Shown piece by piece: positions 28,962 through 49,575 of a DNA stretch of 64,000 nucleotides. Both the position numbers and the translations under genes were made by a program. Below the pieces are notes generated by a model, which worked only from the letters and a program-made list of their open reading frames with translations, made no database searches and was not told the origin of the DNA. Position 1 is the stretch's first letter. The number at the start of each line of letters is the position of its first letter. This stretch comes from a bacterium. GTDB lineage: Bacteria > Patescibacteriota > Patescibacteriia > UBA9570. Where the stretch lies: the NCBI GenBank assembly GCA_030698395.1, contig JAUYKW010000018.1, forward strand, positions 44,726-108,725, given 5' to 3'.

Positions 28962-30827
28962 ATGAATAAAAAAAAATATCAAGCTAAATTTGATGCTTTC
29001 ATAAAAAGGCATCCATTATTGTTACCAGTTATTGTTTCAGTTTTATGTGGATTGGTGTTATTAATTATTGCATTAAAATCTAGTGGTTCAGATTGGTTTT
29101 TTTCGGAGGTGTTAGCGGAGACAATCTATTCAGCAATTGTCTATCATCATGAGTTTCCATTTTTTTCTTACTTTCTAAATGGTGGAACACCTTTTATTCA
29201 AGATCCACAAGGGCCATTATTATCTATTAGTACGTTATGGATTTTGATATTTGGGCCTTGGGGTGGCTTAAGATTTGCCGCATTTTTTTGGGGATTTATC
29301 GGTACCTTTTCCTGCTGGGGGTGGCTAAGACCTAAATTAGGAAGTGGGCCAGCGTTAGTTTCTGCTACTGCCTGGATTTTGAGCATGGGTTTCTTTTGGC
29401 GTTTAGTAGTTGGTCACGATATGTTCTTGTGGCACTTAGCATTACCATTATTTTTAATAGTTATTGAAAAGTTAATATTTAAACCAACATGGAAGAATAG
29501 TATATTACTTGGATTGCTAACTGGATTATTTATCCTCGGACCATCATTACATTCACTTTTATATTTTATTATCCCAGCTGTAGTAATCTGGTACGTGGTG
29601 TTGTTGGTTGGTAATCACAAAAGAATAGCTATTAAGAATATATTTCTATTTTCAGCAATGGCTATTGTTATAGCATTAGCAATTGCATCACCAAAAGTTG
29701 CTGCATGGTCACGGCTAGATATGGTGAGAGAGACACAGAGTGAAAGTGCAATGTATTTAAAGGATGCTTTAATATCAATTGTTGACACTCAAGTTAGATC
29801 TGATCGTGGGTATTTGCTGGACGAGAAGTATGAGCGGGAAAGTTGGGGTATTTGGGAAAGTAATGTTGCCGCAACACCAATAATTCTTACATTAGCAATA
29901 TTAGCGCTTTTCATAGTAGCTTTCAAAAAAGAAAAACCAAATAGTTTGTTCATTTTTTCTATTACACTGTTTTTTGTAGGATTATTTATTGCGACAAACT
30001 CTTGGTTTTGGCAAGTATTTAGAGAATTATCGAATGGTAGTTTTAGGGTATCAGGCAGATTTTTAGGATTAGCTAATTTTTCAATAATTATCTTAGCGGG
30101 TATCGCAACAAAGTATTTGACAGGAATTGTCTCAAAAAAAATTCCTCATTTATCTGCAATTTTTATATTATCAACATTTGTTTTTAGTGCATTACTGATC
30201 TATCAAGCGAGCGTGACATTATCACCATATGTAAGTTCTGGAGGTAATATCCTTAAGCCAATCACAGCTATCTGGAATCATTCAAAAAAGAAAACTGACT
30301 CACCCATGTTAACAGGAGTAAATCATTATTATTATGATCAGGAGATAGAAGCAAATCAAATTAGTTCTGGTAACCTATATTTATTATATGGTCATAAAAT
30401 AATTGGAGATTCTGTTTCTGAAATACCTCTTGATGATTTTATGAAGATATTACCGAATAAAGATATAGAAATTCCAGTCTCACCAGAATTATCACCAGAT
30501 CGTTTAGAAGTATTTCATACTAAATTAGTGATTAGTAATTTACAGCCATTGGAAGAAGTAAACATCAGATTAAAGGTTGCACCATTAGGACAGGAAATTA
30601 TCACAGAACCTAGCGGGGCTAATATCACATTAGAGGAAAATGCAGGCACAATGACATTAATTAATAATGAGAATTACTTAATAGAAAAAATTACGATAAA
30701 ACCAAAGTCTCCTGTACCAGTAATAGCATGGATAGTGTCAATATTAACGTTAATAGCCTCTATAGGCTATCTAGTGGCCAAATCTGGAATTAGTGCTAGA
30801 ATAAGGTTTCAAAAAAATAAGGCATAA
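28962..30827 (+). CDS. Polytopic membrane protein (at least 10 TM) with a C-terminal extracytoplasmic domain; putative GT-C-fold glycosyltransferase
   Basis: It is 621 aa. The N-terminal two-thirds are multi-TM and a soluble C-terminal domain of about 180 aa ends in a final TM. It sits immediately upstream of a Dpm1-like GT2. It could not be assigned to a named family by eye. Confidence 0.45.
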   Translation: MNKKKYQAKFDAFIKRHPLLLPVIVSVLCGLVLLIIALKSSGSDWFFSEVLAETIYSAIVYHHEFPFFSYFLNGGTPFIQDPQGPLLSISTLWILIFGPWGGLRFAAFFWGFIGTFSCWGWLRPKLGSGPALVSATAWILSMGFFWRLVVGHDMFLWHLALPLFLIVIEKLIFKPTWKNSILLGLLTGLFILGPSLHSLLYFIIPAVVIWYVVLLVGNHKRIAIKNIFLFSAMAIVIALAIASPKVAAWSRLDMVRETQSESAMYLKDALISIVDTQVRSDRGYLLDEKYERESWGIWESNVAATPIILTLAILALFIVAFKKEKPNSLFIFSITLFFVGLFIATNSWFWQVFRELSNGSFRVSGRFLGLANFSIIILAGIATKYLTGIVSKKIPHLSAIFILSTFVFSALLIYQASVTLSPYVSSGGNILKPITAIWNHSKKKTDSPMLTGVNHYYYDQEIEANQISSGNLYLLYGHKIIGDSVSEIPLDDFMKILPNKDIEIPVSPELSPDRLEVFHTKLVISNLQPLEEVNIRLKVAPLGQEIITEPSGANITLEENAGTMTLINNENYLIEKITIKPKSPVPVIAWIVSILTLIASIGYLVAKSGISARIRFQKNKA

Positions 30828-30830
30828 TCT

Positions 30831-31592
30831 ATGGATATAAAAGTATCAGTAATACTTCCAACTTATAATGAAAAGGATAATATTGGAGATTTAGTATTGG
30901 CCATTGATAAGGAAGTTCAAGCTAGTAAAGAAATTATTGTGGTTGACGACGATTCTCCAGATGGGACGTCTCAAATAATTCAAAAGATGATCGATCAGCA
31001 TCAGGTGCTTAATTTAAGATTGATTACAAGAAAACAAGATAAGGGATTAACCAATAGTATTTGGGAAGGAATTCAGCAAGCACATGGTGAGATTGTGCTA
31101 TGGATGGATTGTGATTTTTCAATGCCTCCAAAAGATATACCTCGTTTATTAAAGAAAATTGATGAAGGTAATGATGTTGCAGTTGGTTCTCGTTTTGTGA
31201 AGGGTGGAAGCTTTAAAGAAGATACGTCAGATTCAGAAGATTCTTGGTTGGCAGTTGTGCTTAGTAGATTGATGAATGTATTTATTCGCATGATGTTAGG
31301 TAGAGATTTTAAGGATTATACGAGTGGTTTTATTGCTATTAAACGAAGCATCTTTGATAAGATAACTCTTACTGGAGATTATGGAGAATATTTTATAGAT
31401 TTGATTGTGCGAGCTAAATTATTCAATTTTAAAATTATTGAAATTCCATATACATGCTTACCCCGTGAAAAAGGTGAGTCTAAGACTGGTAGTAATTTAT
31501 CTGATTATATTAAGCGTGGCAGTAAATACGTTTGGGTGACTTTAAAGCTTTTTAAATTAAGGATGAAGTATAAGTTTTTTAGAATTGTGTAG
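30831..31592 (+). CDS. GT2 polyprenyl-phosphate glycosyltransferase (Dpm1/GtrB/ArnC-like)
   Basis: Motifs: VSVILPTYNEKDNI; VVDDDSPDGT (DxD region); LWMDCDFSMPP; VGSRF. Its 253-aa length is typical of dolichyl/undecaprenyl-phosphate sugar synthases. Confidence 0.8.
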   Translation: MDIKVSVILPTYNEKDNIGDLVLAIDKEVQASKEIIVVDDDSPDGTSQIIQKMIDQHQVLNLRLITRKQDKGLTNSIWEGIQQAHGEIVLWMDCDFSMPPKDIPRLLKKIDEGNDVAVGSRFVKGGSFKEDTSDSEDSWLAVVLSRLMNVFIRMMLGRDFKDYTSGFIAIKRSIFDKITLTGDYGEYFIDLIVRAKLFNFKIIEIPYTCLPREKGESKTGSNLSDYIKRGSKYVWVTLKLFKLRMKYKFFRIV

Positions 31593-31596
31593 GACT

Positions 31597-32181
31597 ATGG
31601 TTTTACCATTAAAAAAAGAAAGTATTTCAAAAGTAGTAGATCTTCATAAGCAAGTATTGGGACACACTCTAAACGCTAGAATAGGTTCATGGTTTTTAGA
31701 GAAATTATATGAAGAGACTATGCTAGCAAAAGAAAATGGTAGGTGCTTTGTCTCGTTTGAGGATGAAAAAGTTGTTGGCTTTGTTAGTATTTGTTTAGAT
31801 TATGAAGCTCTCAGTTCACGAATTATGAGTTCATTAACATTGGTACAAAAAATTAAGGTAAGCATTTTTATGGGAAGTCATTTTTGGTTAATACCAGATT
31901 TTTTCAAGAAGCAATTGTTCTCTAGATACATAAAAGCAAATATGCCACAGCCATATCCTATGGTATTAACAATTGGTGTAGATTCTAACCAACAGGGTAA
32001 TGGGATTGGTAAACAATTGATGCATGAGGTAAAAACTAGCTTTCGTAAGCATAATTTAACAGAATTTTATCTAGATACAGAAGAAACAAACGAACAGGCT
32101 ATCGGATTTTATAAGAAAATTGGTTTTGATGAGATTGCCAGGAAATACGGCAACGTAGTTTTGCAATATAAATTGAACTGA
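31597..32181 (+). CDS. GNAT-family N-acetyltransferase
   Basis: It has the acetyl-CoA binding motif QQGNGIGKQLMHEV in a GNAT fold. The C-terminus has EETNEQAIGFYKKIGF. Start is probably the Met at 31597. Confidence 0.7.
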   Translation: MVLPLKKESISKVVDLHKQVLGHTLNARIGSWFLEKLYEETMLAKENGRCFVSFEDEKVVGFVSICLDYEALSSRIMSSLTLVQKIKVSIFMGSHFWLIPDFFKKQLFSRYIKANMPQPYPMVLTIGVDSNQQGNGIGKQLMHEVKTSFRKHNLTEFYLDTEETNEQAIGFYKKIGFDEIARKYGNVVLQYKLN

Positions 32182-33440
32182 TGAGCATTGGTAAGAGAGA
32201 AATTAAAAAGGAGCATCTTCCGATTATAGTATTGGTTGCATTTAGTATCTTGGTGCAGTTAGCAATCTTGCCAAATTTTGGTTCTTTAGATACTAATGCA
32301 TTTATTAGAGTTGTTGATACAGTGGAGGCTTTTGGATTAAAACAAGGGTATGCAATTTATAATTTAGTGTATCCGCCACTAAGCTCCATCTTTGCATATG
32401 GTATTCATTTGATAATTCCGCTTTATTCTTTTATGCCTAAGCATCTACAGGTATTGGCTATAAAAGTGGGTTTGGCAATATTTCATTATGGTTTCCTAGC
32501 TTGTATATTATTGTTTCATAGAAAAAATAAAAAGTTATCTTGGTTCGCAGCAACAAAAGAAACAATTCCTATTTTATTGAACATTGCATTGATTGAGTCT
32601 ACGTTTATTATAGGATCATTTGATATTCTTTTGGCCATTCCGTTATTTTTTGCTTTTTATTTTGTATATAAGAAAAAGTTTTTTTGGTCTGGTTTTTTTC
32701 TCGCCACCGCTTTTTGTACTAAATTATTGCCGATTCTTTTAATTCCAGCTTTTTTAGTTTTCTTTTCATCGAAATTGTCGAAGGAAAAAATTACCCTTAA
32801 TTGGAGAGCGGTAAATTTATTTTTTCTGGGTATGTTAGTTGTAGTTGTACCTTTAGTGGCGTATTTTGGTTATCCGGAGATTAGAGAAATATTTGTAAAA
32901 TCATCAGTTCATAGTGATAAGTTGTCAGCGGCTTTTAATTTTAATAGAATAGTTCGTGAATTATTTATGCCGGAGAATATAACTACGCCGGCTATTTACT
33001 ATTTTGGTCGAGGAGTATTCTTTCTAACCTCAGCATTTTTACTAATAAGATTATGGATGAGTCCAAAGAATATTCAAAATCTACTATATACTAGCATTGG
33101 AATAATCATAACTTATTTTACTTTTCTTGCTGGCGTGCATCAGAATCATATTTTTCCGGCACTAATCTTTGCTATCCTCTTGGTGATGTATAACAAAAAT
33201 AGCATAAATATGTTTATTTATTATTCTATCACTGCAATAGCCTTTATAAATTGGTTCGCACCTTATGGGTTTGGATATTTTGAAACTGTTGAATATACCG
33301 GAATTAGATATTTGTGGCAGCTTCCAGTTACTACCATTGGTTTGATATATGCTTTGTTAAGCTTGCTTACTGTTTTCTTTTTTGGGGGATATATGTGGTT
33401 GGTGTTACGACCAAAATTCTTCAGGCAGACTGAGAAATAA
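32181..33440 (+). CDS. Polytopic membrane protein, putative GT-C-like mannosyltransferase family (DUF2029/GT87-like)
   Basis: It has about 11 TM helices across 419 aa and hydrophobic loops rich in aromatic residues. It lies in a glycosylation context. The family assignment is tentative. Confidence 0.4.
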   Translation: MSIGKREIKKEHLPIIVLVAFSILVQLAILPNFGSLDTNAFIRVVDTVEAFGLKQGYAIYNLVYPPLSSIFAYGIHLIIPLYSFMPKHLQVLAIKVGLAIFHYGFLACILLFHRKNKKLSWFAATKETIPILLNIALIESTFIIGSFDILLAIPLFFAFYFVYKKKFFWSGFFLATAFCTKLLPILLIPAFLVFFSSKLSKEKITLNWRAVNLFFLGMLVVVVPLVAYFGYPEIREIFVKSSVHSDKLSAAFNFNRIVRELFMPENITTPAIYYFGRGVFFLTSAFLLIRLWMSPKNIQNLLYTSIGIIITYFTFLAGVHQNHIFPALIFAILLVMYNKNSINMFIYYSITAIAFINWFAPYGFGYFETVEYTGIRYLWQLPVTTIGLIYALLSLLTVFFFGGYMWLVLRPKFFRQTEK

Positions 33441-34530
33441 GTTTCATTTGTTCACAAACATAATCAATCTGTTCATCTGTGATTGCTAGACCAGAAGGTA
33501 AATATAGGCCATGTTTTGCTATGTAATCCGTGTTGGGGTAGGATCCAATATCCCCGTAAGTATTTATTAGTACTGGCTGATCTGTTGGCGAGTAAAAGAA
33601 ATCTCTAGTATCAATATCTACTTCTTTTAGCTGTGTTCGGACTTCGTCTTTAGTTTTGCCAAATTCCTCTTCAATTAAAATTGCATACATCCAAAAAACA
33701 TTTTTATTTTTCGGAAGTGTGGTTGGCAACTTAATACCTGGAATATCTTTTAGTACGCTATTATACCTTTCTGCCATCTGATTCTTCTTTTCAATATATT
33801 CATCAATATGCTGAAGTTCCCCGCATCCTATTGCAGCTTGCATATTAGTCATTCTATAGTTATAGCCAACGTGTTCATGGATGAATCTTGTATCAGAGTG
33901 ATAGAGATCTTTTAATTTTCTAGCTTTTTCAGCAATTGCATCGTCATTTGTTACTACCATACCGCCTTCTCCAGTAGTGATTATTTTATTTCCATAAAAA
34001 CTAAAACATGCAATGTCGGACATGCTTCCACAAATTCTTCCTTTGTAGGTTGCACCATGAGCTTCAGCAGCATCTTCAATTACGATCAAATTATGTTTCT
34101 GGGCAATTTCTAATATTGGATCCATATCGCAGGAATGGCCATAGATATGAACGGGCATTATTGCTTTGGTATTTTTGGTAATTTTTTCTTCAAGTTTAGC
34201 TGGATCTAAATTATATGTTTCTAATTCACAATCTACAAAAACTGGTTTAGCCCCAGTGTACATTACTGCAAATATTGTTGCGATCATTGTAAACGCAGGT
34301 ACGATTACTTCATCTCCAGGTCCAATATTCATTGTGAGTAAGGCAGTGTGTAATGCTGTTGTTCCATTATTTGTAGTAATGGCGTGCTTAACACCAAGAT
34401 AAGATGCGAACTTGTTTTCGAATTCTTCTACAAATTTTCCAGCAGATGAGATCCAACCTGTTTCTACTGCTTCTAATATATTTTTTTTTGCTTCTTCTGA
34501 TATCAGCGGTTCATTAACGGGTACACGCAT
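33421..34530 (-). CDS. DegT/DnrJ/EryC1/StrS-family PLP-dependent sugar aminotransferase
   Basis: The N-terminal VNEPLISEEAKKNILEAVETGWIS is typical of this family. Further motifs are NNGTTALHTAL and the conserved lysine region SFYGNKIITTGEGG. Length 369 aa. It is compatible with a perosamine-synthase-like C4-aminotransferase or an FdtB-like C3-aminotransferase. Confidence 0.85.
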   Translation of the reverse strand: MRVPVNEPLISEEAKKNILEAVETGWISSAGKFVEEFENKFASYLGVKHAITTNNGTTALHTALLTMNIGPGDEVIVPAFTMIATIFAVMYTGAKPVFVDCELETYNLDPAKLEEKITKNTKAIMPVHIYGHSCDMDPILEIAQKHNLIVIEDAAEAHGATYKGRICGSMSDIACFSFYGNKIITTGEGGMVVTNDDAIAEKARKLKDLYHSDTRFIHEHVGYNYRMTNMQAAIGCGELQHIDEYIEKKNQMAERYNSVLKDIPGIKLPTTLPKNKNVFWMYAILIEEEFGKTKDEVRTQLKEVDIDTRDFFYSPTDQPVLINTYGDIGSYPNTDYIAKHGLYLPSGLAITDEQIDYVCEQMKLISQSA

Positions 34531-34533
34531 ATA

Positions 34534-34950
34534 TTAATCCATAAATATTTTAGCTTTCTTATCTCCAGGATATGGGCCTTGTTTGATTTCAATGATTCTA
34601 CATTTACTTAACATTTTAAATGAATGACCGCCAGCAACGAATAGTGCAAAATCTCCTTTATTTAGTTTAACTTTTTTTAGTACGGTCCAATCATTGCGGT
34701 AAATAGTAGCTTCAACACTGCCCTTTTCAATGTAGAGAAATTCTTGAGTAGTGGATACATTGTATTTTAAGCTTGGATGTCGATGAGGTTTTACTTTGTG
34801 ACCTTTAGGATGTTCTAATAGACCAACTTGAAGCGGGTAATTTTGTGGAGTTAAAAAACGCACTCCATCAGCCTTCATGTCTGCGGAATAAATTAAGGCG
34901 TAGACTTTTTTCCCCTCTGTAATTTCGTTTACTGCTTTCATTTGATGCAA
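34534..34950 (-). CDS. Cupin-fold WxcM/FdtA-like sugar 3,4-ketoisomerase (putative)
   Basis: It is a 138-aa single cupin with a paired-His motif (KPHRHP) positioned like the catalytic HxH of FdtA. It lies directly downstream of, and is co-oriented with, the DegT aminotransferase. Confidence 0.5.
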   Translation of the reverse strand: MHQMKAVNEITEGKKVYALIYSADMKADGVRFLTPQNYPLQVGLLEHPKGHKVKPHRHPSLKYNVSTTQEFLYIEKGSVEATIYRNDWTVLKKVKLNKGDFALFVAGGHSFKMLSKCRIIEIKQGPYPGDKKAKIFMD

Positions 34951-35073
34951 GTATTAATTGAAAATCAGATTATATTATAGGTTCAAAGTACGGGGGAGTC
35001 AATTATTGAAGAATTTCATTATCATTGTTTTTTTTAACCTTTGTCTATATAATAAAGCCTCATTGAAATAATT

Positions 35074-35496
35074 ATGAAACAGTTTATTAGTCAGTTTGTA
35101 AAATTTTGTATTACGGGAACAATCAATGCTGGCATTGATTTCTTAGTATATTTAGGGTTAACGCGCTACTTTGATTTTTGGGAAAATCGTTTAGTCATGG
35201 CCACCGGAGTTGCGTTTGTGATAGCAAATATCAATAGTTATATCATGAATAAATACTGGACATTTCGAGATCCTAACGGTAGGCACAAAATACAATATCC
35301 AAAATTCTTTGCAGTTTCATTGGTTGGTTTAGCAATAAACTTAGCTGTCTTTTATTATCTAGTTCATGTATTAATGATAGACGACATTCTTAGCAAGGTA
35401 ATAGTTGCAGCAATTGTATTAGTATGGAATTTTTTCGCGAATAAATTTTGGACTTTTATTAAGCCAAAAAAAGATTTATTGGAATCTAAAAGTTAA
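35074..35496 (+). CDS. GtrA-family small membrane protein (polyprenyl-phosphate sugar handling / flippase-like)
   Basis: It is 140 aa with four TM helices and the GtrA signature FVKFCITGTINAGIDFLVY...NKYWTF...NKFWTF. Confidence 0.8.
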   Translation: MKQFISQFVKFCITGTINAGIDFLVYLGLTRYFDFWENRLVMATGVAFVIANINSYIMNKYWTFRDPNGRHKIQYPKFFAVSLVGLAINLAVFYYLVHVLMIDDILSKVIVAAIVLVWNFFANKFWTFIKPKKDLLESKS

Positions 35497-37550: not shown

Positions 37551-37582
37551 ATTAAATTTTTATCCATTACTTCCATATTCTA

Positions 37583-37831
37583 TCACCTTTTCTTAATAAC
37601 GAGCATCATAATACCAGCTATCATCGATAAAGCAATACTAAACCATGTAAATGCCCATGCAGCAAAAGCTCTTTGGTGAGCTAAAATTTGATCTTCATAA
37701 TATGGATCTCCTAATAGAGTGGTATCTTGCAAGGTGGCTAAATAGATAATATAAATAGCAGTTAGCGCAATTAGTGCAGTGATTACCCACATAATAGATG
37801 AAAAAATCTTATTTTTAAGGTTTGAGGTCAT
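37583..37831 (-). CDS. Small two-TM membrane protein, hypothetical
   Basis: It is 82 aa with two hydrophobic helices. It overlaps the start of the upstream GT-C-like gene by 17 bp and is co-oriented with it. Confidence 0.4.
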   Translation of the reverse strand: MTSNLKNKIFSSIMWVITALIALTAIYIIYLATLQDTTLLGDPYYEDQILAHQRAFAAWAFTWFSIALSMIAGIMMLVIKKR

Positions 37832-39383: not shown

Positions 39384-39643
39384 GCGAAACAGACTGTGTT
39401 ATTTTACGTATATAATTAAGTCTTGAATATTAGCACTATAGCGCACGTTGGTCGATATTGCCTTATATTGTTATCCTTCTATTAGATTTGAGATGATTGA
39501 GATCTATAAATATGACAATAATGACAATTAATTATAACATGATCAATTAAGCTGGTTTAGTATAATATAATATCATTATCTCTTGCAAATATTGAGAAAA
39601 TGTGGTTTTCTTAACGATACATTAGTAAAAATTAAGTAAATTC

Positions 39644-40306
39644 ATGAAATCAATAGCAGTAATACCGGCATATAATGAAGAGATTCATTTACAAGAAGTG
39701 TTAGATAAAGTTAGGTCATATGTATCTCAAGTTATTGTGATTGATGATGGTTCATCAGATAGTAGTTTTGAGATCGCAGATAGTATGGGTGGCCAGGTAA
39801 TCGCTCTTCAGCATGAAATAAATTTAGGAAAGGGAGCAGCTCTAAAGACTGGATGTGACGCTGCCAAAAAGTTGGGTGCAGATTATATAATATGTATGGA
39901 TGCGGATAATCAGCACAAGCCAGAGAGTATACCAAAATTTCTAGATGCATTAGTAGATGAAGATATTGATATAGTATTCGGAGCAAGACAGTTTAATAAA
40001 GATATGCCATTTATGATGTTTATGGGAAATAGAGTTTTATCGGTAATTATTAATAAACTTTTTCATATTTTTGTTCACGACACTCAATCTGGCTATCGGG
40101 CGTTTACAGTTGATGCTTATGATAAGTTGAAATGGGAGAGTAGTGGATATGAGGCAGAAACCGAAATGATTGTTCGAGCCAGTGAGTATCATTTAAAATA
40201 TGCAGAGGTAGATATTGATACTATTTATCATGATGACTATAAAGGGACTACAGCAATAGACGGGATCAAGATATTACTTCAAATAATTAAGTGGAAACTT
40301 CTATGA
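39644..40306 (+). CDS. GT2 polyprenyl-phosphate glycosyltransferase (GtrB/CsbB/ArnC-like)
   Basis: Motifs: IAVIPAYNEEIHL; VIVIDDGSSDSS; ICMDADNQH; FGARQ. Length 220 aa. Confidence 0.8.
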   Translation: MKSIAVIPAYNEEIHLQEVLDKVRSYVSQVIVIDDGSSDSSFEIADSMGGQVIALQHEINLGKGAALKTGCDAAKKLGADYIICMDADNQHKPESIPKFLDALVDEDIDIVFGARQFNKDMPFMMFMGNRVLSVIINKLFHIFVHDTQSGYRAFTVDAYDKLKWESSGYEAETEMIVRASEYHLKYAEVDIDTIYHDDYKGTTAIDGIKILLQIIKWKLL

Positions 40307-40650
40307 CAAATATTCAAATAGTAGCATCAATTTTTGGCTTAGCTATGATATATATGACGTTTTTGCAGTATAAACGAGGAGCGTTCAATAGATATCAATT
40401 TGTTATTTGGGTAGTATTATTTCTTAGTTTTGTAATTGTAATTTGGTTGCCGGATAAGTTTAATTTTATAACGGAACGTTTAGGTATTTCACGCGCATTT
40501 GATTTATTTTCTATCATTGCTTTTGTTATCATATTGTTTCTTACATTTCATAATTATTTATTAATAACGAGGATAGAAAAGAGATTAGAAACTAAAGTTC
40601 GAGAAAAAACTTTAACGAAAGTAGATTCATTTAAGGATAAACAACAATAA
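40291..40650 (+). CDS. DUF2304-family small membrane protein (frequent partner of polyprenyl-P GT2 enzymes)
   Basis: It is 119 aa with three or four TM helices and overlaps the 3' end of the preceding GT2 gene. The GT2-plus-small-membrane-protein pair is typical of this family. Confidence 0.6.
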
Positions 40651-40660
40651 TAAAATTTTT

Positions 40661-41710
40661 ATGAAAAAAGCATTACTAATTGGAATCACAGGACAAGACG
40701 GATCTTACTTAGCAGAACTATTATTAGACAAAGGCTATGAAGTTCATGGTACAATGCGGAGATCTAGCCAATTTAATACTGGACGAATTGATCACTTGTA
40801 TAAGGATCCACATTTAAATGGAGTAAGACTTTTTTTACATTATAGTGATTTAACTGATGGAAGTAATTTAGCTAGATTAATTAGAGAAATTAAACCAGAC
40901 GAAATTTATAATTTAGGTGCTCAAAGTCATGTGCGGGTTAGTTTTGATATTCCGGAATATACAGCTATGGTGACTGGATTAGGAACGCTTAAAATTTTAG
41001 ATGCGATTCGCGATGTAAAAAAGGATACAAAGTTTTATCAAGCATCAAGTTCAGAGATGTTTGGTTTAGTACAGGAAGTACCACAAAAAGAAGATACGCC
41101 TTTTTATCCAAGATCACCATATGCAGTGGCTAAAGTTTATTCATACTGGATTACTAGAAATTACCGGGAAGGATATGATCTTTTTGCTAGTAATGGTATT
41201 TTGTTTAATCATGAATCACCCCGACGTGGAGAAACATTCGTAACTAGAAAGATAACCAGAGCTTTATCTAAGATAAAATTGGGCATCGATAAAAAATTGT
41301 ATTTGGGCAACATGGATGCAAAACGTGATTGGGGATATGCTCCTGATTATGTTGAAGCTATGTGGATGATGATGCAACAAGATAAACCAGATGATTATGT
41401 AATAGCAACTGGGGAAACTCATTCAGTGCGAGAGTTTGTAGAAGTTGCTGCAAAATGTTTGGATATTGATGTTATTTGGGAGGGTAAGGGAGTTGATGAG
41501 AAAGGCTATAATAAAAAAACGGGAGAGGAAATTGTTAATATAGATCCTAAATATTTTCGACCAACTGAGGTTGATTTATTAATTGGTGATTATTCCAAAG
41601 CTAAGAAAGATTTAGGTTGGGAACCGAAAGTTACTTTTAAAGAGCTAACTCAAATCATGATAGATGCGGATTACGATTATTATGTACGCGAGAAAGGACA
41701 TATAAAATAG
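40661..41710 (+). CDS. gmd: GDP-mannose 4,6-dehydratase
   Basis: Motifs: [29 protein letters not shown]; [19 protein letters not shown] (catalytic YxxxK); [10 protein letters not shown]. Length 349 aa. Confidence 0.9.
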
Positions 41711-41711
41711 T

Positions 41712-42641
41712 ATGGATAAAAATGATAAAATATATATTGCTGGACACCGAGGATTAGTTGGTAGTGCGATAGTACGAAAGTTGGAAGCAGAGGGTTTTAC
41801 TAACATTATTAAGCGTACTAGAAAAGAATTAGATTTAGTAAATCAAGCAGCCGTTACAGAATTTTTTGCTACTGAAAAACCAGATTATGTATTTTTAGCT
41901 GCAGCTAAAGTAGGTGGCATTAATGCTAACGATATTTATCCTGGTGATTTTATTTATCAGAATTTACAGATTCAGAATAACATTATTAGTAATGCTAAAG
42001 AAGTTGGAGTTAAGAAATTATTGTTTTTAGGCAGTAGCTGTATTTATCCTAAATTGTCTAAGCAGCCAATGAAAGAAGAGTATCTTTTAACAGGAACTTT
42101 AGAGCCAACAAATGAACCGTATGCTATAGCAAAGATTGCTGGTATAAAAATGTGTCAATCATACAATAAACAATATGGGACGAATTTTATCTCTGTGATG
42201 CCGACAAATTTATTTGGTTTTAATGATAACTTTGATTTAGAAAAATCACATGTACTACCAGCATTATTACGAAAAATTTATGAAGCAAAAAAAAATAATC
42301 AATCCACTGTTACGGTTTGGGGAACAGGAAAGCCACGTCGTGAATTTTTGTTTGTTGACGATTTAGCTGATGCAGTTTATTTTTTGATGCAGAACTATGA
42401 TGAGGATGAAATAGTAAATATTGGCACTGGTGAAGATATTATGATTTCAGAGTTAGCAGAATTGATTAAGAAGGTAATAGGTTTTGAAGGCGAAATTGTA
42501 TATGACGCAAGTAAACCTGATGGAACTCCGCGAAAATTATTAGATGTAAGTAAATTAAATGGACTTGGTTGGAAAGCAGATACTTCGCTTGAGGACGGTA
42601 TTAGAAAAACTTTTGAATGGTTTCAGGCTAACTTGCCTTAA
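41712..42641 (+). CDS. fcl: GDP-L-fucose synthase (GDP-4-keto-6-deoxy-D-mannose 3,5-epimerase/4-reductase)
   Basis: The N-terminus [19 protein letters not shown] is typical of this family. Further motifs are catalytic YAIAKIAG and [23 protein letters not shown]. It is immediately downstream of gmd. Confidence 0.9.
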
Positions 42642-42643
42642 AT

Positions 42644-43414
42644 ATGAAGGTATCTATAATTACACCTTCATATAATCAGAAAAATTTTATTGCCCAAACA
42701 ATAGAAAGCGTTATTAATCAGCGTGGTGATTTTGAGTTGGAGTATATTATTATTGATGGTTCATCTACTGATGGATCAATTGATATTATTAAAAAGTATG
42801 CAGCAATGGATGCTAGAATAAAATGGCTTTCTGAAGAGGATCGTGGGCAATCACATGCAATCAATAAAGGATTAAAAATGGCTACTGGTGATATAGTTGC
42901 TTATTTGAATTCGGATGATGTTTATCTAAAAGATGCTTTAAAAAAATTAGTGGCAGAATTTTCCAAACAGAAAGACTTAAAATGGTTATATGGTGGTTGT
43001 AATATCATAGATGAATCTGGAGATGAAACACGAGGCATAATAACAAAATATAAAGAGTGGCTAGGAAAAAAATATTCGTATAACAAACTATTAGTAGTGA
43101 ATTTTATTAGCCAGCCAGCAGTTTTTTGGCGACGGGATTTATTAGATGAAATTGGATTTATCAATGAAGATGAGCACTTAGTTATGGATTATGAATATTG
43201 GTGCAGACTTGGCAAGAAGTACCAACCTTATAAGCTAACAGATAACATAGCTGCGTTTCGTTCGTATACTGATAATAAAAGTAGCCAAGGTTTTGTAAAG
43301 CAATTTAAGCGAGAAGCACAAATAGCTAAAAAATATTCCAATAGTTTTATATTAAACATTTTGCATTTGATACACGTAGGAGGAATAATTATGATTTATA
43401 AAATAATTTCTTAG
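42644..43414 (+). CDS. GT2 family glycosyltransferase
   Basis: Motifs: VSIITPSYNQKNFI; IIIDGSSTDGS; YLNSDD (DxD). Confidence 0.8.
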   Translation: MKVSIITPSYNQKNFIAQTIESVINQRGDFELEYIIIDGSSTDGSIDIIKKYAAMDARIKWLSEEDRGQSHAINKGLKMATGDIVAYLNSDDVYLKDALKKLVAEFSKQKDLKWLYGGCNIIDESGDETRGIITKYKEWLGKKYSYNKLLVVNFISQPAVFWRRDLLDEIGFINEDEHLVMDYEYWCRLGKKYQPYKLTDNIAAFRSYTDNKSSQGFVKQFKREAQIAKKYSNSFILNILHLIHVGGIIMIYKIIS

Positions 43415-44578
43415 ATGAAAATTCTTCAGGTTATTCCATATTTTGTGCCGGCCTTTAGTTATGGCGGTCCTATCCAGACATGTTTAGTTATATCTCAGCA
43501 CATGGTTAATAATGGCCATGAGGTAACTGTTGCTACAACAGATACTCTTGATGGTAAAGAGAGAATATATTTTCTAAATGAGGATATCGATGGAATTAGA
43601 GTTGTGAGGTTTCGGAATGTAAGTAATTCAATTGCAAAAAAAACTAATTTATTTTTGCCGATAGGTTTTAGAAAATGGTGTAAAGATAATATAAAACAAT
43701 TTGATATTATTCATTGTCATGATTTTTTTACGTACCAAAATATTGTAGTTAGGTACTATGCAAAGAAATATCACATTCCTTTCATAATTCAACCACATGG
43801 ATCTTTAGAGGATGTGCGATTACAGGCTAGGTTTGGTTTTATAAAAAGATTTTTTATTCGAAAAGTTCTTTTTTTATTATTAGAAGCTAAATATGTTATT
43901 GCTCTAACTAAAGCAGAACAACTGACAATAAATAAGATTGATTCAAATGCAAATGTTTCAATTGTACCAAATGGCATTAATTTGGATCAGTATTATGATG
44001 TTCAAGAAATTAATTTGCATGCGAAATATAATTTACCTGCAGATACAAAGTTAATTTGTTTCTTAGGAAGAGTACAATACATCAAGGGATTAGATCATTC
44101 CTTATTAACACTTAAGCATCTAGTTGGTAAGGTGGCATTTCATTTTTTTATTATCGGACCCAACGAAGGTGATGAACAACAACGATTAGAGAATATAATT
44201 AAAGAAGATAATTTAGAAAAATTTGTTACTTTTGTAGGATTATTATCTGGAATGGAAAAGAAGCAATTTATTAAATCATGTGATTCATTTTTAATGTTAT
44301 CACGCAGTGAAGGATTGCCAATATCTATTTTAGAAGCTGCGGCCGTTGGTTTACCGACTATGATTTCATATGAGTGTCATGTTCCAGAATTAGCAGTTTT
44401 AAATGCTGGGTACGAAGTTGATAAGATTGATTATGTTAATAATGCAAAAATACTCAAGAATTTTTTTGATTCTTCTGATATTTCAGATAACATGCGGATG
44501 CAAGCAAGGGCAGTAGTTGCGGATAAATTTTCCGTCCCAAAGATGGTAACCAAAATAAAGTCTTTATATCAGGATTAG
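43415..44578 (+). CDS. GT4 (group 1) glycosyltransferase
   Basis: The N-terminus KILQVIPYFVPAFSYGGP is typical of GT4. The C-terminal half has the EGLPISILEAAAVGLP (E-x7-E) motif. Confidence 0.8.
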   Translation: MKILQVIPYFVPAFSYGGPIQTCLVISQHMVNNGHEVTVATTDTLDGKERIYFLNEDIDGIRVVRFRNVSNSIAKKTNLFLPIGFRKWCKDNIKQFDIIHCHDFFTYQNIVVRYYAKKYHIPFIIQPHGSLEDVRLQARFGFIKRFFIRKVLFLLLEAKYVIALTKAEQLTINKIDSNANVSIVPNGINLDQYYDVQEINLHAKYNLPADTKLICFLGRVQYIKGLDHSLLTLKHLVGKVAFHFFIIGPNEGDEQQRLENIIKEDNLEKFVTFVGLLSGMEKKQFIKSCDSFLMLSRSEGLPISILEAAAVGLPTMISYECHVPELAVLNAGYEVDKIDYVNNAKILKNFFDSSDISDNMRMQARAVVADKFSVPKMVTKIKSLYQD

Positions 44579-46554
44579 CTATCTGGCGTATTTATTTTTT
44601 TGGTACCGTATATTGTACGGTATTTTTTGTGATTGAATTTGTAGAGCATCCATTGTGTTCGGTTGCCAATTCTCTGTTCATCTACTTTGGTAAATGCTAA
44701 AGGGTATTTATCTAATACCTTGTAAAATTCTTGGAGATCTTTTTGATTATTACTATTATTTAGGATCCAGTAATAATTAATTCCATTTTTACGTAACTTA
44801 TTTGTGAGTAGTTCATTTGGTTTGATGGTGAAATATCTTTGTTGGTAATTTGTGTCGAATGTTCTAATAAGGGCTACAGCGTGATTATTACGAATTTGTA
44901 TATCTGAGGAATAGTATTGAGTTTCATAGAAATGAGCATTACTAGCTATTAAACCATTATTAGATGCATTTTTTAATGAGTCTGTAGCGGTAGGTGCGCC
45001 ATAATCATATCCGTAAGTTGCTAAGGACAACTTGTTATTAAAATAAAAAGGAGCCATTTTTAAACAGAGTAAGGTAATTATTATTAATCCGAGGATGGGG
45101 TATTTCTGTTTGAGTTTTATCTTTGGGAATAATATGACTCCTATTAAGAGAATCACAAAAAGTGCAATAAAAATTATCGGTTTATAAGTTAATAGAGTTG
45201 CAAGAAATGAGGCATTTGCTAGTGCACTACCATATACAAGATCTTTGATATCAAACCAATACAAAATTACAAAAAATATAAATACTGATGAAAATATAAT
45301 TGATTGTCGTTTGGAGAATTTTGTTAGTATTTGGCGAGCGGCGAGAAATGTAAAGTAAATAATACAAACTAATATTGGCAATGTAACTCGGAAACCAATA
45401 ATGCTTTCAGCCTCATGATAATTCAGATAAACGAATACGAGGAGTAATGTCATCATTACAATGTCTGGTCGTATTTTACTATAATGTTTTTTAAAATTGT
45501 TAAATATTCGCTTTGCACTTATCCAAATCCCTAGAGATGTTAAAGGTAAAATAAAAATATTTAAATCTTGCTCGGAAAAATTATAAGAATAAATCAACCA
45601 AAGTTTTTGAAAGAAGTTAGCAGGTGCGCGTTGAATTTGAGATTCAACTAATCCTGTTGGAATTTCTCTTGAGTATTCCGCAATAGCAATTTTAGATTGG
45701 CTTAATTCACTTATTAGTGGAGTATCAGATGGGCTAAGAGAAAGAATTTGATCCAGCACAGAAAAAATAAGTTTGTTGATGAAAATGTATATATCACCAA
45801 ATACAAAACGAAGAAGATTTTCATATAAGCGGGGATATGGCAACATGTTAAAATCTAGTAATAGTATCGTTGCAATAAAAGTAGGGAAGGCAATTATTAA
45901 AGATTCTTTTATGATATATAATATTTTATATGATATTTCTTTATTTATTTTCCAAGAGTCTAGTATAGTAATTGTAAAAATCATTGGAGCAGCCAGCAAC
46001 AAATAGTAATCTTTTATCAACATTAGCAACAATAGGCCAAGACCAATTTGATATGCTTTGGCTTTTTTTGCCAGTAAGTAGACTAGGAAAGTAAATGCAA
46101 AAGTTGCTGGAATGTCTAGCATTAAACGAACCGAGAATATCCAAAAACCTGGAATTAGTAATAAGATAAAAAGAAACCACTTGCGTCTTTCCTTTTTAAT
46201 GTCTAAATGATTAGTAAGTAAATAAAGGGATATTATAAATCCAGCAGCGAAGATAAAAATTGGAATTCTATATTCAGTTAGAGTCTGAGGATTTGTGATT
46301 AGATTGTATAAAAATGCTACAAACGCCACTAAAAATGTATGCTCTGTATTAATGTTATACCAGGAAATTTCTCCATTAAATGCACCTTTGAAAGCGTTAA
46401 CAATGTTTGCATAGATATACTCATCAGGTGTGGGCCATATCCAGTTATTTAAAAGGGCAAGAAATATTAAGGAAAATAATAAAAAAAATATCAAGGTAGA
46501 ATGTTGTTTGAGGAATTTTACTAGTTGTTGTATTATCTTCATTTTATATCTCAC
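44575..46554 (-). CDS. GT-C-fold membrane glycosyltransferase (PMT/ArnT, GT39/GT83-like)
   Basis: It is 659 aa with about 12 TM helices. The first loop carries WPTPDEYIYANIV, matching the DE-x-Y catalytic motif of PMT/ArnT-type polyprenyl-phosphate-sugar-dependent transferases. The C-terminal soluble domain is about 160 aa. Confidence 0.6.
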   Translation of the reverse strand: MRYKMKIIQQLVKFLKQHSTLIFFLLFSLIFLALLNNWIWPTPDEYIYANIVNAFKGAFNGEISWYNINTEHTFLVAFVAFLYNLITNPQTLTEYRIPIFIFAAGFIISLYLLTNHLDIKKERRKWFLFILLLIPGFWIFSVRLMLDIPATFAFTFLVYLLAKKAKAYQIGLGLLLLMLIKDYYLLLAAPMIFTITILDSWKINKEISYKILYIIKESLIIAFPTFIATILLLDFNMLPYPRLYENLLRFVFGDIYIFINKLIFSVLDQILSLSPSDTPLISELSQSKIAIAEYSREIPTGLVESQIQRAPANFFQKLWLIYSYNFSEQDLNIFILPLTSLGIWISAKRIFNNFKKHYSKIRPDIVMMTLLLVFVYLNYHEAESIIGFRVTLPILVCIIYFTFLAARQILTKFSKRQSIIFSSVFIFFVILYWFDIKDLVYGSALANASFLATLLTYKPIIFIALFVILLIGVILFPKIKLKQKYPILGLIIITLLCLKMAPFYFNNKLSLATYGYDYGAPTATDSLKNASNNGLIASNAHFYETQYYSSDIQIRNNHAVALIRTFDTNYQQRYFTIKPNELLTNKLRKNGINYYWILNNSNNQKDLQEFYKVLDKYPLAFTKVDEQRIGNRTQWMLYKFNHKKYRTIYGTKKINTPDS

Positions 46555-47450: not shown

Positions 47451-47462
47451 AATTGATACAAT

Positions 47463-49573: not shown

Positions 49574-49575
49574 TT

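What the first reader, a model, noticed from the sequence alone, without database searches (positions are those of the whole stretch)
28962..46554. Three GtrA/GtrB/GtrC-style extracytoplasmic glycosylation modules (polyprenyl-P GT2 + small membrane partner + GT-C)
Module 1 is a GT-C-like 621-aa membrane protein (28962..30827), then a Dpm1-like GT2 (30831..31592), then after a GNAT a second polytopic membrane protein (32181..33440). A GtrA flippase-like protein (35074..35496) lies nearby. Module 2 is a GT-C-like 522-aa protein (37815..39383) divergent from GT2 (39644..40306) plus DUF2304 (40291..40650). Module 3 is a PMT/ArnT-like GT-C with a DE-x-Y loop motif (44575..46554). In known systems such trios charge a polyprenyl phosphate with a monosaccharide in the cytoplasm, flip it, and add it to a polymer, lipid or protein outside the membrane. 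Examples are Shigella Gtr, Gram-positive CsbB/GtcA/YfhO, mycobacterial Ppm1/PMT and ArnC/ArnT. Several such modules in one locus imply multiple extracytoplasmic sugar decorations, or protein O-glycosylation.
Basis: inference. Interest (0 to 1): 0.55.

Follow-up and report, generated by a model that had tools for sequence, protein, structure and literature searches.

The report
Extracytoplasmic glycosylation gene cluster, four GT-Cs
A candidate-phyla (Kerfeldbacteria-like) bacterium carries a roughly 29-kb surface-glycan locus in which two lipid-phosphate sugar synthases, a GtrA protein and four membrane GT-C glycosyltransferases probably add sugars outside the cell membrane; this is a known kind of system, built here from three GT-C families that sequence databases do not recognise.

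Summary
Every ORF is at the stated coordinates, and all four polytopic proteins are GT-C glycosyltransferases, not transporters or Wzy/ligase-like proteins.

- **B (419 aa):** passes Pfam GT87.
- **A (621 aa):** linked by profile search to YfhO/AftD-like GT-Cs.

The count of "three trios" is off. There are two polyprenyl-phosphate-type GT2 synthases, one GtrA, one DUF2304 (GacJ-like) partner and four GT-Cs.

- **Module 2:** GT2 + DUF2304 + Gmd + Fcl lie divergent from C plus a conserved 82-aa two-helix protein. This layout is kept in 11 of 11 related loci.
- **Module 1:** the DPMS-like GT2 belongs to a widespread cassette with a DegT aminotransferase and a cupin, often plus a GNAT. That resembles the Arn pathway and points to an amino sugar.
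- **D:** has no synthase of its own.

The locus extends to about 57586 and includes Wzm/Wzt, GT4/GT2 enzymes, sulfotransferases and methyltransferases. The best reading is decoration of an ABC-exported surface glycan. This is a new member of a known kind, of moderate interest.

The parts
28962..30827 (+). GT-C 'A' (621 aa), a distant YfhO/AftD-like member; first gene of the operon A-GT2-GNAT-B
   Evidence: No Pfam, NCBIfam or PDB sequence hit itself. A family profile finds 1345 proteins at E<=1e-3. Of 70 distant ones, 17 hit Pfam YfhO, 14 PTPS_related and 8 GT-C_AftD. hhalign against the C family gives 92% probability. About 10 or more hydrophobic helices and an N-terminus inside. D44-W45 after TM1 is nearly invariant across the superfamily, and R366 is invariant. 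Two homologues carry a CBM_4_9 domain.
30831..31592 (+). Soluble DPMS/ArnC-like GT2 (253 aa), a candidate polyprenyl-phosphate sugar synthase
   Evidence: Pfam GT2 E 4e-33. Best PDB match is P. furiosus Dol-P-Man synthase 5mlz at E 8e-38 (residues 3-229), then ArnC at 1e-20 and GtrB at 8e-10. The top four NCBIfam hits are ArnC, AglJ, Dol-P-hexose transferase and PgfS. No TM helix. In 37 metagenome loci, homologues sit within 3 kb of a DegT gene in 31 and of a cupin gene in 26.
31585..32181 (+). GNAT N-acetyltransferase, overlapping both neighbouring genes
   Evidence: Pfam Acetyltransf_1 E 4e-17. A GNAT lies within 3 kb of the GT2 homologue in 10 of 37 metagenome loci, and also in L014 and L017.
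32181..33440 (+). GT-C 'B' (419 aa), GT87-like
   Evidence: Pfam PF09594 GT87 E 5.4e-11, 43.1 bits against a cut-off of 25. About 9 or more hydrophobic helices and an N-terminus inside. No structure model was made.
33421..34530 (-). DegT-family sugar aminotransferase (LegC/PseC-like)
   Evidence: Pfam DegT_DnrJ_EryC1 E 1.5e-128. Best NCBIfam match is the LegC family, E 7e-108. Syntenic with the DPMS-like GT2.
34534..34950 (-). Small cupin (138 aa), weakly WbuC-like
   Evidence: NCBIfam WbuC cupin E 3e-8, below the cut-off. Conserved beside DegT and the GT2 in 26 of 37 loci.
35074..35496 (+). GtrA-family small membrane protein (140 aa)
   Evidence: Pfam GtrA_DPMS_TM E 5e-28. Orthologues lie between the A and D genes in L017 (63% identity), directly upstream of a GT8-D fusion in L019, and between the GT2 and C in L002.
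36612..37550 (-). GalE-like or 4,6-dehydratase-like SDR, in the C operon
   Evidence: NCBIfam GalE E 3e-59, dTDP-glucose dehydratase 2e-46, LegB 4e-43. Found downstream of C+s82 in 9 loci.
35497..36636 (-). UPF0020/TIGR01177-like methyltransferase, last gene of the C operon (role unknown)
   Evidence: conserved position.
37583..37831 (-). s82: an 82-aa two-helix membrane protein overlapping the end of the C gene; candidate accessory subunit
   Evidence: No Pfam or NCBIfam hit. Two TM helices. Invariant inter-helix loop DTTLLGDPYYED. Present after the C gene in all 10 loci that extend far enough.
37815..39383 (-). GT-C 'C' (522 aa), a sequence-orphan family
39644..40306 (+). PpgS/GacI-like GT2 (220 aa), a candidate polyprenyl-phosphate sugar synthase
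   Evidence: Best NCBIfam match is PpgS at E 5e-34 over its full length, but below the equivalog cut-off. PDB matches: ArnC 2e-12, DPMS 2e-11. Divergent from C in 11 of 11 loci.
40291..40650 (+). DUF2304 (GacJ/Rv3632-like) three-helix partner of the GT2
   Evidence: Pfam DUF2304 E 7.5e-15, 55.5 bits against a cut-off of 25.5. Three hydrophobic helices. Overlaps the GT2 stop codon. GacJ and Rv3632 stimulate their synthases (bioRxiv 10.1101/180810).
40661..42641 (+). Gmd (40661-41710) and Fcl (41712-42641): synthesis of GDP-L-fucose
   Evidence: Both pass NCBIfam equivalog cut-offs (577 against 415; 511.7 against 500). They directly follow a DUF2304 gene in the 10 loci that contain one; L010 is cut short.
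42644..44578 (+). Cytoplasmic GT2 (TuaG/EpsE-like) and GT4, in the same operon
   Evidence: conserved after Fcl in most loci.
44575..46554 (-). GT-C 'D' (659 aa; NCBI start at 46542), ArnT-like fold with an invariant DE motif
46587..48683 (-). Generic GT2 (287 aa) and GT4 (406 aa), upstream of D in the same operon
   Evidence: A GT2_287 homologue is adjacent to D in L004, L006 and L018.
48722..57586 (.). Rest of the glycan locus: two sulfotransferases, an FkbM methyltransferase and a class-I methyltransferase, a GT4, a GT2, a STELLO-like GT, and the Wzt/Wzm ABC exporter (54464-56501)

Best explanation
The interval is the core of a roughly 29-kb surface-glycan locus (28962-57586). [quoted passage not shown]

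Proposed mechanism:
1. Cytoplasmic GT4 and GT2 enzymes build a lipid-linked glycan, which Wzm/Wzt exports.
2. In parallel, two GT-A-fold GT2 enzymes load single sugars onto polyprenyl phosphate at the inner face of the membrane.
3. GT2_220 works with its DUF2304 (GacJ-like) partner. Its substrate is probably either a UDP-hexose or UDP-HexNAc epimer made by the linked GalE-like enzymes, or GDP-L-fucose made by the adjacent Gmd/Fcl.
4. GT2_253 is a soluble DPMS-like enzyme. Its substrate is probably an N-acetylated amino-deoxy sugar made by the linked DegT aminotransferase, cupin and GNAT. This parallels ArnB/ArnA/ArnC.
5. The lipid-linked sugars are flipped, probably by the single GtrA protein. 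GtrA may also act as the missing membrane domain of the DPMS-like enzyme.
6. The four GT-C enzymes (A YfhO-like, B GT87-like, C with its 82-aa partner, D ArnT-like) use these donors outside the membrane to glycosylate the exported polymer or another surface acceptor. An invariant acidic residue in the first external loop would act in catalysis, and an invariant Arg would bind the donor phosphate.

Shown here: gene content, family and fold assignments, conserved motifs and conserved synteny. Inferred: donors, flipping, acceptor, and which synthase feeds which GT-C.
For: GT-C identity:
- B passes Pfam GT87.
- The A family profile reaches 1345 proteins. Distant members hit Pfam YfhO (17 of 70), PTPS_related (14) and GT-C_AftD (8). 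hhalign between the A superfamily and the C family gives 92%, E 6.6e-7.
- All four proteins have a basic N-terminus, then TM1, then a conserved Asp: A D44, C D36, D D40-E41.

Synthases:
- GT2_253 matches PfDPMS at 8e-38, ArnC at 1e-20 and GtrB at 8e-10.
- GT2_220 matches PpgS at 5e-34 and ArnC/DPMS at about 1e-11 to 1e-12.
- The other scanned GT2s match glycan-elongating enzymes instead.
- DUF2304 and GtrA pass Pfam.

Synteny:
- GT2_220 lies divergent from C in 11 of 11 loci. A DUF2304-Gmd-Fcl run follows it in the 10 loci that extend that far, and s82 follows C in 10 of 10.
- GT2_253 homologues lie next to DegT in 31 of 37 loci, the cupin in 26 of 37, a GNAT in 10 of 37 and a polytopic membrane protein in 20 of 37.
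- L017 has GNAT / DegT-cupin / A-GtrA-GT8-D in one block. L061 has a YfhO-like gene next to the cassette.

Exporter and cytoplasmic GTs.

Literature for the model: PMC8035078, PMC5836110, bioRxiv 10.1101/180810, PMC9671496. For the GtrA-like TM domain of DPMS: PMC12992685.
Against: - No experiment or lipid analysis exists, and the organism is an uncultured MAG.
- D has no adjacent polyprenyl-phosphate-type GT2. Its conserved upstream neighbours are a generic GT2 or a GT8, sometimes fused, which does not fit a simple trio.
- Both synthases score far below the NCBIfam equivalog cut-offs (117.7 against 370 for PpgS; 91.4 against 529 for ArnC), so the sugar specificity is unknown.
- No priming phosphoglycosyltransferase, LCP ligase or identified acceptor lies in the window.
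- GtrA proteins are only presumed flippases.
Confidence: 0.75

Rival explanations
1. The GT-C enzymes are elongating or branching enzymes. They would build a substantial part of the glycan outside the membrane from polyprenyl-phosphate sugars, as mycobacterial Aft/Emb/Mpt/PimE enzymes do, rather than adding single-sugar decorations.
For: Four GT-Cs are fed by only two donor synthases, the pattern seen with mycobacterial DPA and PPM. B is GT87, the PimE family. A's relatives hit the AftD GT-C domain. AftD, AftA and AftB are among the structural matches. A-family genes occur as tandem paralogues, with at least three in this genome.
Against: The locus also encodes a full set of cytoplasmic GT4/GT2 enzymes and a Wzm/Wzt exporter, enough for a backbone. 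Nothing distinguishes processive from single-addition GT-Cs by sequence.
Confidence: 0.2
2. One or more of the GT-Cs (C or D) glycosylate proteins such as an S-layer protein, pilin or lipoprotein, in the manner of PMT or an oligosaccharyltransferase, rather than a polysaccharide.
Confidence: 0.12
3. D transfers the whole ABC-exported polymer from its undecaprenyl-diphosphate carrier to its final acceptor, acting as an en bloc ligase, rather than using a polyprenyl-monophosphate sugar.
For: D lacks its own polyprenyl-phosphate synthase. It is linked, and in some relatives fused, to a cytoplasmic GT8 or a generic GT2 that would act on the lipid-linked glycan. No LCP or WaaL-type ligase was found in the window.
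Against: GtrA lies directly upstream of D or of the GT8-D fusion in L017 and L019, which suggests a monophosphate-linked donor. The best structural match is ArnT, a polyprenyl-phosphate monosaccharide user.
Confidence: 0.1
4. The polytopic proteins are not glycosyltransferases. They would be transporters, Wzy polymerases, O-antigen ligases or SEDS-type proteins.
For: A, C and D have no Pfam or NCBIfam match above a family's own curated cut-off (D has one weak sub-threshold NCBIfam hit) and no significant PDB sequence match.
Confidence: 0.03

Closest known systems
Streptococcus pyogenes GacI/GacJ/GacK/GacL (GlcNAc side chain of the group A carbohydrate)
   Same: A short GT2 with no TM helix sits next to a three-helix DUF2304 protein, and a GT-C uses the lipid-linked sugar outside the membrane. 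The backbone is made by cytoplasmic GTs and exported by an ABC transporter (bioRxiv 10.1101/180810; PMC8035078). Module 2 and the Wzm/Wzt genes here have the same layout.
   Different: The flippase candidate here is GtrA, not the Wzx-type GacK. The GT-C (C) is a sequence-orphan family with a conserved 82-aa partner. The operon carries Gmd/Fcl and GalE-like genes, so the sugar is probably not GlcNAc.
Mycobacterium / Corynebacterium PpgS-Rv3632-Rv3779 with Rv3634c epimerase (GalN on arabinogalactan)
   Same: GT2_220's best NCBIfam match is PpgS. It has a DUF2304 partner like Rv3632. A GalE-like epimerase is linked to the cluster, and a GT-C performs the final transfer (PMC9671496).
   Different: The PpgS score is far below the equivalog cut-off (117.7 against 370). 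The organism is a Patescibacteria-type bacterium with no arabinogalactan. The GT-C is unrelated in sequence to anything named.
Bacillus / Listeria / Staphylococcus CsbB-GtcA-YfhO and Lactococcus CsdAB/CD/EF with a single CflA flippase
   Same: The parts are a polyprenyl-phosphate GT2, a GtrA-type protein and a YfhO-type GT-C. As in L. lactis, several GT-Cs share one GtrA (PMC8035078, PMC5836110). A is a distant YfhO-superfamily member.
   Different: A itself does not hit the Pfam YfhO model. GT2_253 lacks the C-terminal TM helices of CsbB and GtrB. The teichoic-acid acceptors are not expected here.
ArnB/ArnA/ArnC/ArnT (lipid A aminoarabinose) and related lipid-linked amino-sugar pathways
   Different: None of the proteins reaches an Arn equivalog cut-off. 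The acyltransferase is a GNAT, not a formyltransferase. No deformylase or deacetylase, and no ArnE/F, is seen. A monoderm-like CPR bacterium has no lipid A.
Pyrococcus furiosus type-III Dol-P-Man synthase (PDB 5mlz)
   Same: It is the best solved relative of GT2_253 (E 8e-38 over the catalytic domain). Its membrane domain is GtrA-like (PMC12992685).
   Different: Here the catalytic domain and the GtrA-like protein are separate genes 3.5 kb apart. Synteny suggests an amino-deoxy sugar rather than mannose.

Membership tests
GT-C glycosyltransferase superfamily (fold level) | Polytopic membrane protein with at least 8 TM helices, a cytoplasmic N-terminus and a large first external loop | tested here: met
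   Hydropathy scans show about 9 to 14 helices in A, B, C and D, all with basic N-termini. The AF2 helix maps for C and D agree.
GT-C glycosyltransferase superfamily (fold level) | Conserved acidic residue(s) at the start of the first external loop | tested here: met
   A: D44-W45, nearly invariant in 70 remote relatives. C: invariant T34-P35-D36. D: invariant D40-E41-x-x-Y44. B: Asp residues follow TM1, but no homologue set was available, so conservation is untested for B.
GT-C glycosyltransferase superfamily (fold level) | Three-dimensional similarity to solved GT-C enzymes | tested here: met
GT-C glycosyltransferase superfamily (fold level) | Uses a polyprenyl-phosphate or polyprenyl-diphosphate linked sugar donor | not testable with these tools
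   Only inferred, from linkage to polyprenyl-phosphate-type GT2, DUF2304 and GtrA genes.
Pfam GT87 (PF09594; PimE-type) | Score above the Pfam gathering threshold | tested here: met
   B: 43.1 bits against a cut-off of 25, E 5.4e-11, residues 64-309.
YfhO family (PF09586) | Match to the Pfam YfhO model | tested here: not met
   A and its 7 close homologues do not hit YfhO. Only remote profile hits do (17 of 70, best E 3.6e-10). A is a distant relative, not a member.
PMT (GT39) / ArnT (GT83) | Match to the Pfam PMT or PMT_2 models; for PMT also a MIR domain in loop 5 | tested here: not met
   D has no Pfam hit, and 1 of 16 homologues hits PMT at E 0.012. The Pfam scans returned no MIR domain. 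The DE motif and the ArnT-like fold are present.
Oligosaccharyltransferase STT3/AglB/PglB | WWDYG motif in the C-terminal external domain | tested here: not met
   No WW[DE][YWF]G or close variant occurs in any of the 9 C-family sequences. The nearest conserved string is (L/Q/I)W(Y/F)xG, which lacks the Asp.
GtrA family (PF04138) | Pfam gathering threshold; small protein with 3-4 TM helices | tested here: met
   98 bits against a cut-off of 26.1. 140 aa with hydrophobic helices. Flippase activity is not testable here.
DUF2304 / GacJ / Rv3632 | Pfam gathering threshold, three TM helices, and a gene adjacent to a short polyprenyl-phosphate GT2 | tested here: met
   55.5 bits against a cut-off of 25.5. 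Three hydrophobic segments. Overlaps the GT2_220 stop codon. The pairing is kept in the 10 related loci that extend far enough.
PpgS (NCBIfam NF058614 equivalog) | Score above the equivalog cut-off | tested here: not met
   GT2_220 scores 117.7 bits against 370. It is the best hit and covers the full length.
ArnC (NCBIfam NF007986 equivalog) | Score above the equivalog cut-off, plus C-terminal TM helices | tested here: not met
   GT2_253 scores 91.4 bits against 529 and has no TM helix.
Type-III DPMS | DPMS catalytic domain fused to a GtrA-like four-helix membrane domain | tested here: not met
   The catalytic domain matches 5mlz at E 8e-38, but there is no fused TM domain. GtrA is a separate gene at 35074-35496.
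Multi-component transmembrane glycosylation system (three-component Gtr type) | A polyprenyl-phosphate GT-A synthase, a small flippase-type protein and a GT-C encoded together, with conserved linkage | tested here: met
   All three classes are present within 18 kb. The synthase-GT-C linkage is conserved in 11 of 11 loci for module 2 and recurs for module 1 parts.

The most novel reading that the evidence does not exclude
The locus makes two lipid-linked sugar donors that have not been described. One would be polyprenyl-phosphate L-fucose (or another GDP-6-deoxyhexose derivative), made by the GacI/GacJ-like pair that is always followed by Gmd-Fcl. It would be used by the orphan GT-C 'C' together with an obligatory 82-aa subunit. 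The other would be a polyprenyl-phosphate N-acetyl-amino-dideoxyhexose (perosamine-like or bacillosamine-like), made by a split DPMS-like enzyme. That enzyme sits in a DegT-cupin-GT2 cassette that recurs in most of 37 sampled metagenome contigs (31 with DegT) and would represent an Arn-like pathway outside lipid A biology.
Probability: 0.2. Interest if true: 0.55.

Novelty: new member of a known kind. Interest (0 to 1): 0.35.

Why it matters
Candidate-phyla (Patescibacteria) bacteria live attached to host cells, and their surface glycans are essentially uncharacterised.

- This locus shows that they use the same extracytoplasmic, lipid-phosphate-sugar-dependent glycosylation logic as Firmicutes, Actinobacteria and Gram-negative bacteria.
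- The GT-C enzymes involved are invisible to Pfam, NCBIfam and PDB sequence searches and are annotated as hypothetical proteins.
- The analysis gives three GT-C families with defined catalytic-loop motifs, plus a conserved 82-aa partner.
- It also defines a widespread DegT-cupin-DPMS-like cassette that could be annotated across metagenomes.
- It yields concrete enzymes for testing new lipid-linked donors.
- It does not change the concept of how such systems work.

Tried and rejected
- **Sequence searches against the PDB.** A, B, C and D as single sequences, and the A, C and D families as profiles, found nothing meaningful.
- **Pfam and NCBIfam on A, C and D.** No hits, except a weak AZOBR_p60025 match for D.
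- **hhalign between the small family alignments.** This gave no signal. Only the deeper A superfamily profile linked to C, and it did not link to D.
- **OST identity for C.** Rejected, because there is no WWDYG motif.
- **Other failed or uninformative searches.** The AFDB Foldseek library was unavailable. A metagenome scan with B found no relatives. Cluster look-up of A-superfamily members returned no informative names. The promoter and terminator scan found no more sites than shuffled sequence. Rfam found nothing in the window.
- **Polytopic neighbours of the GT2_253 cassette.** In metagenomes these are diverse and could not be tied to A-D by hmmsearch or phmmer.
- **GT2_287 as a polyprenyl-phosphate synthase for D.** Considered but not supported. 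Its NCBIfam hits are to glycan-elongating GT2s and cover only the N-terminus.

Full report
**Source and observation**

The window is part of a 112,874-bp contig of an NCBI metagenome-assembled genome labelled only 'bacterium' (locus tags Q8P90_). The closest relatives of its proteins are from Candidatus Kerfeldbacteria and other Patescibacteria. GC content is about 34%.

The 522-aa and 659-aa genes are on the minus strand. NCBI starts the 659-aa gene four codons later, giving 655 aa.

Pfam confirms the following:
- GT2 for 30831-31592 and 39644-40306.
- A GNAT at 31585-32181.
- GtrA_DPMS_TM for 35074-35496 (E 5e-28).
- DUF2304 for 40291-40650 (E 7.5e-15).
- GT87 for the 419-aa protein 'B' (E 5.4e-11, above the gathering cut-off).

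The three large polytopic proteins had no Pfam match and no NCBIfam match above cut-off. These are A (621 aa, 28962-30827), C (522 aa, 37815-39383, minus strand) and D (659 aa, 44575-46554, minus strand). D gave one weak hit to NF046093. As single sequences, none had a meaningful PDB match.

**Are the polytopic proteins GT-C enzymes?**

Homologue searches returned small families confined to CPR-type metagenome bins: 8 sequences for A, 18 for D and 9 for C. Profiles of these families still found nothing in PDB sequences. The small alignments were also not detectably related to one another.

*C and D.* AlphaFold2 models built on the family alignments were confident: C at pLDDT 80.9 and pTM 0.76, D at pLDDT 82.2 and pTM 0.82.
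- Foldseek gave the same families for C at probability 1.0.

*A.* A profile search of 1.84 billion representative proteins found 1345 relatives at E<=1e-3. I scanned 70 distant full-length hits against Pfam. Of these, 17 match YfhO, 14 match PTPS_related and 8 match the AftD GT-C domain. The 70-sequence profile aligns to the C family with 92% hhalign probability (E 6.6e-7). The aligned stretch contains A's invariant R366 and C's invariant R313.

A is therefore a remote YfhO/AftD-superfamily GT-C. It is not a member of Pfam YfhO itself. Two A homologues carry a CBM_4_9 carbohydrate-binding domain, which hints at a glycan acceptor.

*Shared features.* All four proteins have a basic N-terminus, then TM1, then a conserved acidic residue:
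- A: G-x-D44-W45.
- C: T34-P35-D36.
- D: W-P-T-P-D40-E41-Y-x-Y.

This is the GT-C hallmark. C has no WWDYG motif, so it is not an oligosaccharyltransferase in the STT3/PglB sense.

**The synthases and small partners**

Only two of the five GT2 genes scanned against NCBIfam or the PDB resemble polyprenyl-phosphate sugar synthases.
- **GT2_253** (30831-31592) matches P. furiosus Dol-P-Man synthase at E 8e-38, ArnC at 1e-20 and GtrB at 8e-10. Its four best NCBIfam hits are ArnC, AglJ, Dol-P-hexose transferase and PgfS.
- **GT2_220** (39644-40306) has PpgS as its best NCBIfam hit (E 5e-34, full length). In the PDB it matches ArnC and DPMS at about 1e-11 to 1e-12.

Both score far below the equivalog cut-offs, so sugar specificity cannot be read off. 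The GT2s at 42644-43414 and 46587-47450 match TuaG, EpsE and WcaE-type glycan-elongating enzymes instead.

DUF2304 is the family of GacJ and Rv3632. These are three-helix proteins that bind and strongly stimulate GacI and PpgS (bioRxiv 10.1101/180810; PMC9671496).

GT2_253 lacks any TM helix. Its nearest solved relative carries a GtrA-like membrane domain (PMC12992685). The separate GtrA gene could therefore serve as flippase, as membrane partner, or as both. This is inference.

**Synteny**

*Module 2.* I examined 11 loci holding a C-family gene: two from contig look-ups and nine from GTDB genomes. The layout is constant. On one strand, the order is GT2_220-like, DUF2304, Gmd, Fcl, then usually a GT2_256-like gene and a GT4. 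Divergent from this, the order is an optional GalE-like gene, C, the 82-aa ORF, GalE312 and MTase379. The 82-aa protein is a two-helix hairpin with an invariant loop DTTLLGDPYYED. Gmd and Fcl pass the NCBIfam equivalog cut-offs. This is strong evidence that GT2_220/DUF2304 and C/s82 work together.

*Module 1.* The metagenome scan matched 537 stretches encoding a GT2_253 relative, and the best 80 loci were kept. Among 37 of these loci of at least 6 kb:
- a DegT aminotransferase lies within 3 kb in 31;
- a WbuC-like cupin lies within 3 kb in 26;
- a GNAT lies within 3 kb in 10;
- a polytopic membrane protein lies within 5 kb in 20.

Two loci add Gmd to the cassette. The window's DegT is closest to the LegC family. 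This pattern parallels ArnB/ArnA/ArnC/ArnT. It suggests that GT2_253 charges the lipid with an N-acetylated amino-deoxy sugar.

*Links between A, GtrA and D.*
- L017 carries GNAT / DegT-cupin / A-family - GtrA - GT8-like - D in one block.
- L014 has an A-family pair 4 kb from GNAT-GT2-cupin-DegT.
- L061 has a YfhO-like gene adjacent to the cassette.

*D's neighbours.* D has no synthase of its own. Its conserved upstream neighbour is a generic GT2 (window, L004, L006, L018) or a GT8-like protein. In three homologues the GT8-like protein is fused to D's N-terminus. The free L017 protein is 55% identical to that fused domain.

**Extent of the locus**

Upstream of 28962 the genes are housekeeping: ELP3-like, SHMT and YchF. 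Downstream, the glycan locus continues to about 57586. It includes a GT2, two GT4s, two sulfotransferases, FkbM and class-I methyltransferases, a further GT2, a STELLO-like GT, and Wzt (with a weak Wzt_C match) and Wzm. After that come rpsF, ssb and efp. No priming phosphoglycosyltransferase, LCP ligase or WaaL-type gene was seen in the window.

**Interpretation**

- Two lipid-phosphate sugar donors are made in the cytoplasm, flipped (GtrA is the candidate), and used by four GT-Cs outside the membrane.
- The acceptor is most likely the polymer built by the cytoplasmic GTs and exported by Wzm/Wzt.
- One GtrA serving several GT-A/GT-C pairs has a precedent in Lactococcus lactis (PMC8035078).

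Shown here: gene content, folds, motifs and synteny. Inferred: donors, pairings of synthases with GT-Cs, flipping and the acceptor.

Rival readings are extracytoplasmic elongation as in mycobacteria, protein glycosylation, and an en bloc ligase role for D. The data cannot exclude any of them.

**Novelty**

The new elements are:
- three GT-C families that sequence databases do not recognise, now with defined catalytic-loop motifs;
- a conserved 82-aa partner of C;
- a split DPMS-like synthase;
- a widespread DegT-cupin-GT2 cassette.

I found no paper linking Patescibacteria with GT-C enzymes in the searchable library. I rate this a new member of a known kind, of moderate interest.

Noticed in passing
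window 37583-37831 (-): An 82-aa two-helix membrane protein overlaps the stop codon of the GT-C 'C' gene. Its inter-helix loop DTTLLGDPYYED is invariant. It follows the C gene in every related locus that extends far enough, and it has no Pfam or NCBIfam match.
   Followed up: partly
window 35497-36636 (-) and 36612-37550 (-): A UPF0020/TIGR01177-like (RNA/DNA-type) methyltransferase and a GalE-like SDR always close the C operon in related loci. The role of this type of methyltransferase in a glycan operon is unexplained.
   Followed up: partly
P0012, P0013, P0020; L019:1883-4765; L017:5036-6013: Some D-family GT-Cs (about 960 aa) carry an N-terminal cytoplasmic GT8 domain. In L017 the same domain is a free 325-aa protein (55% identical) encoded just upstream of D. 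This is a fusion/fission link between a GT8-family cytoplasmic glycosyltransferase domain and a GT-C.
   Followed up: partly
L020-L099 (metagenome loci): Homologues of the DPMS-like GT2 (45-67% identity) form a widespread cassette with a DegT aminotransferase and a small cupin, often plus a GNAT. The cassette sits next to very diverse polytopic membrane proteins that could not be annotated.
   Followed up: partly
L004:3831-5147, L018:1831-3147; L004:1853-3844: Related loci encode a 438-aa GT4::GtrA fusion protein. L004 also encodes a 663-aa protein combining a weak MptA_B-family (GT-C) hit with a PRK (uridine kinase/phosphoribulokinase) domain; L018 has a truncated PRK-domain gene in the same position.
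   Followed up: no
window 48722-57586: The rest of the glycan locus holds two sulfotransferases, an FkbM methyltransferase, a class-I methyltransferase, a STELLO-like GT, and Wzm/Wzt with a weak Wzt_C domain. This suggests a sulfated and methylated, ABC-exported polymer, possibly with a terminal-modification export signal.
   Followed up: no
window 5836-6987: GC content in the surrounding 6001-8000 bin is about 0.44 against a background of about 0.35. ORFs overlap on both strands. The 383-aa ORF has no Pfam match, and there is no Rfam hit. The nature of this stretch is unknown.
   Followed up: partly
window 22894-24258 (-): A 454-aa protein with an N-terminal TM helix, long repeats of the type G-D-x-x-V-x-G-x-N-V-x-I (beta-helix-like) and 4-5 C-terminal TM helices. 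It has no Pfam or NCBIfam match and lies next to a phosphomannomutase-type gene.
   Followed up: no
window 1671-5656 (-): Two long proteins (470 aa and 828 aa) without Pfam hits or TM helices. The 470-aa one is low-complexity and rich in Pro/Thr/Ser; the 828-aa one is rich in Glu/Ala/Lys. Possibly surface or secreted proteins.
   Followed up: no
window 24930-26534 (+): An ELP3-like radical-SAM plus GNAT protein, which is uncommon in bacteria, is encoded about 2.4 kb upstream of the glycan locus.
   Followed up: no
same MAG, proteins P0002 and P0004 (Q8P90_00205, Q8P90_00695); L014-L016: The genome has at least three A-family GT-C paralogues. Related genomes carry them as tandem pairs, mostly away from any GT2, which suggests shared lipid-linked donors.
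   Followed up: partly
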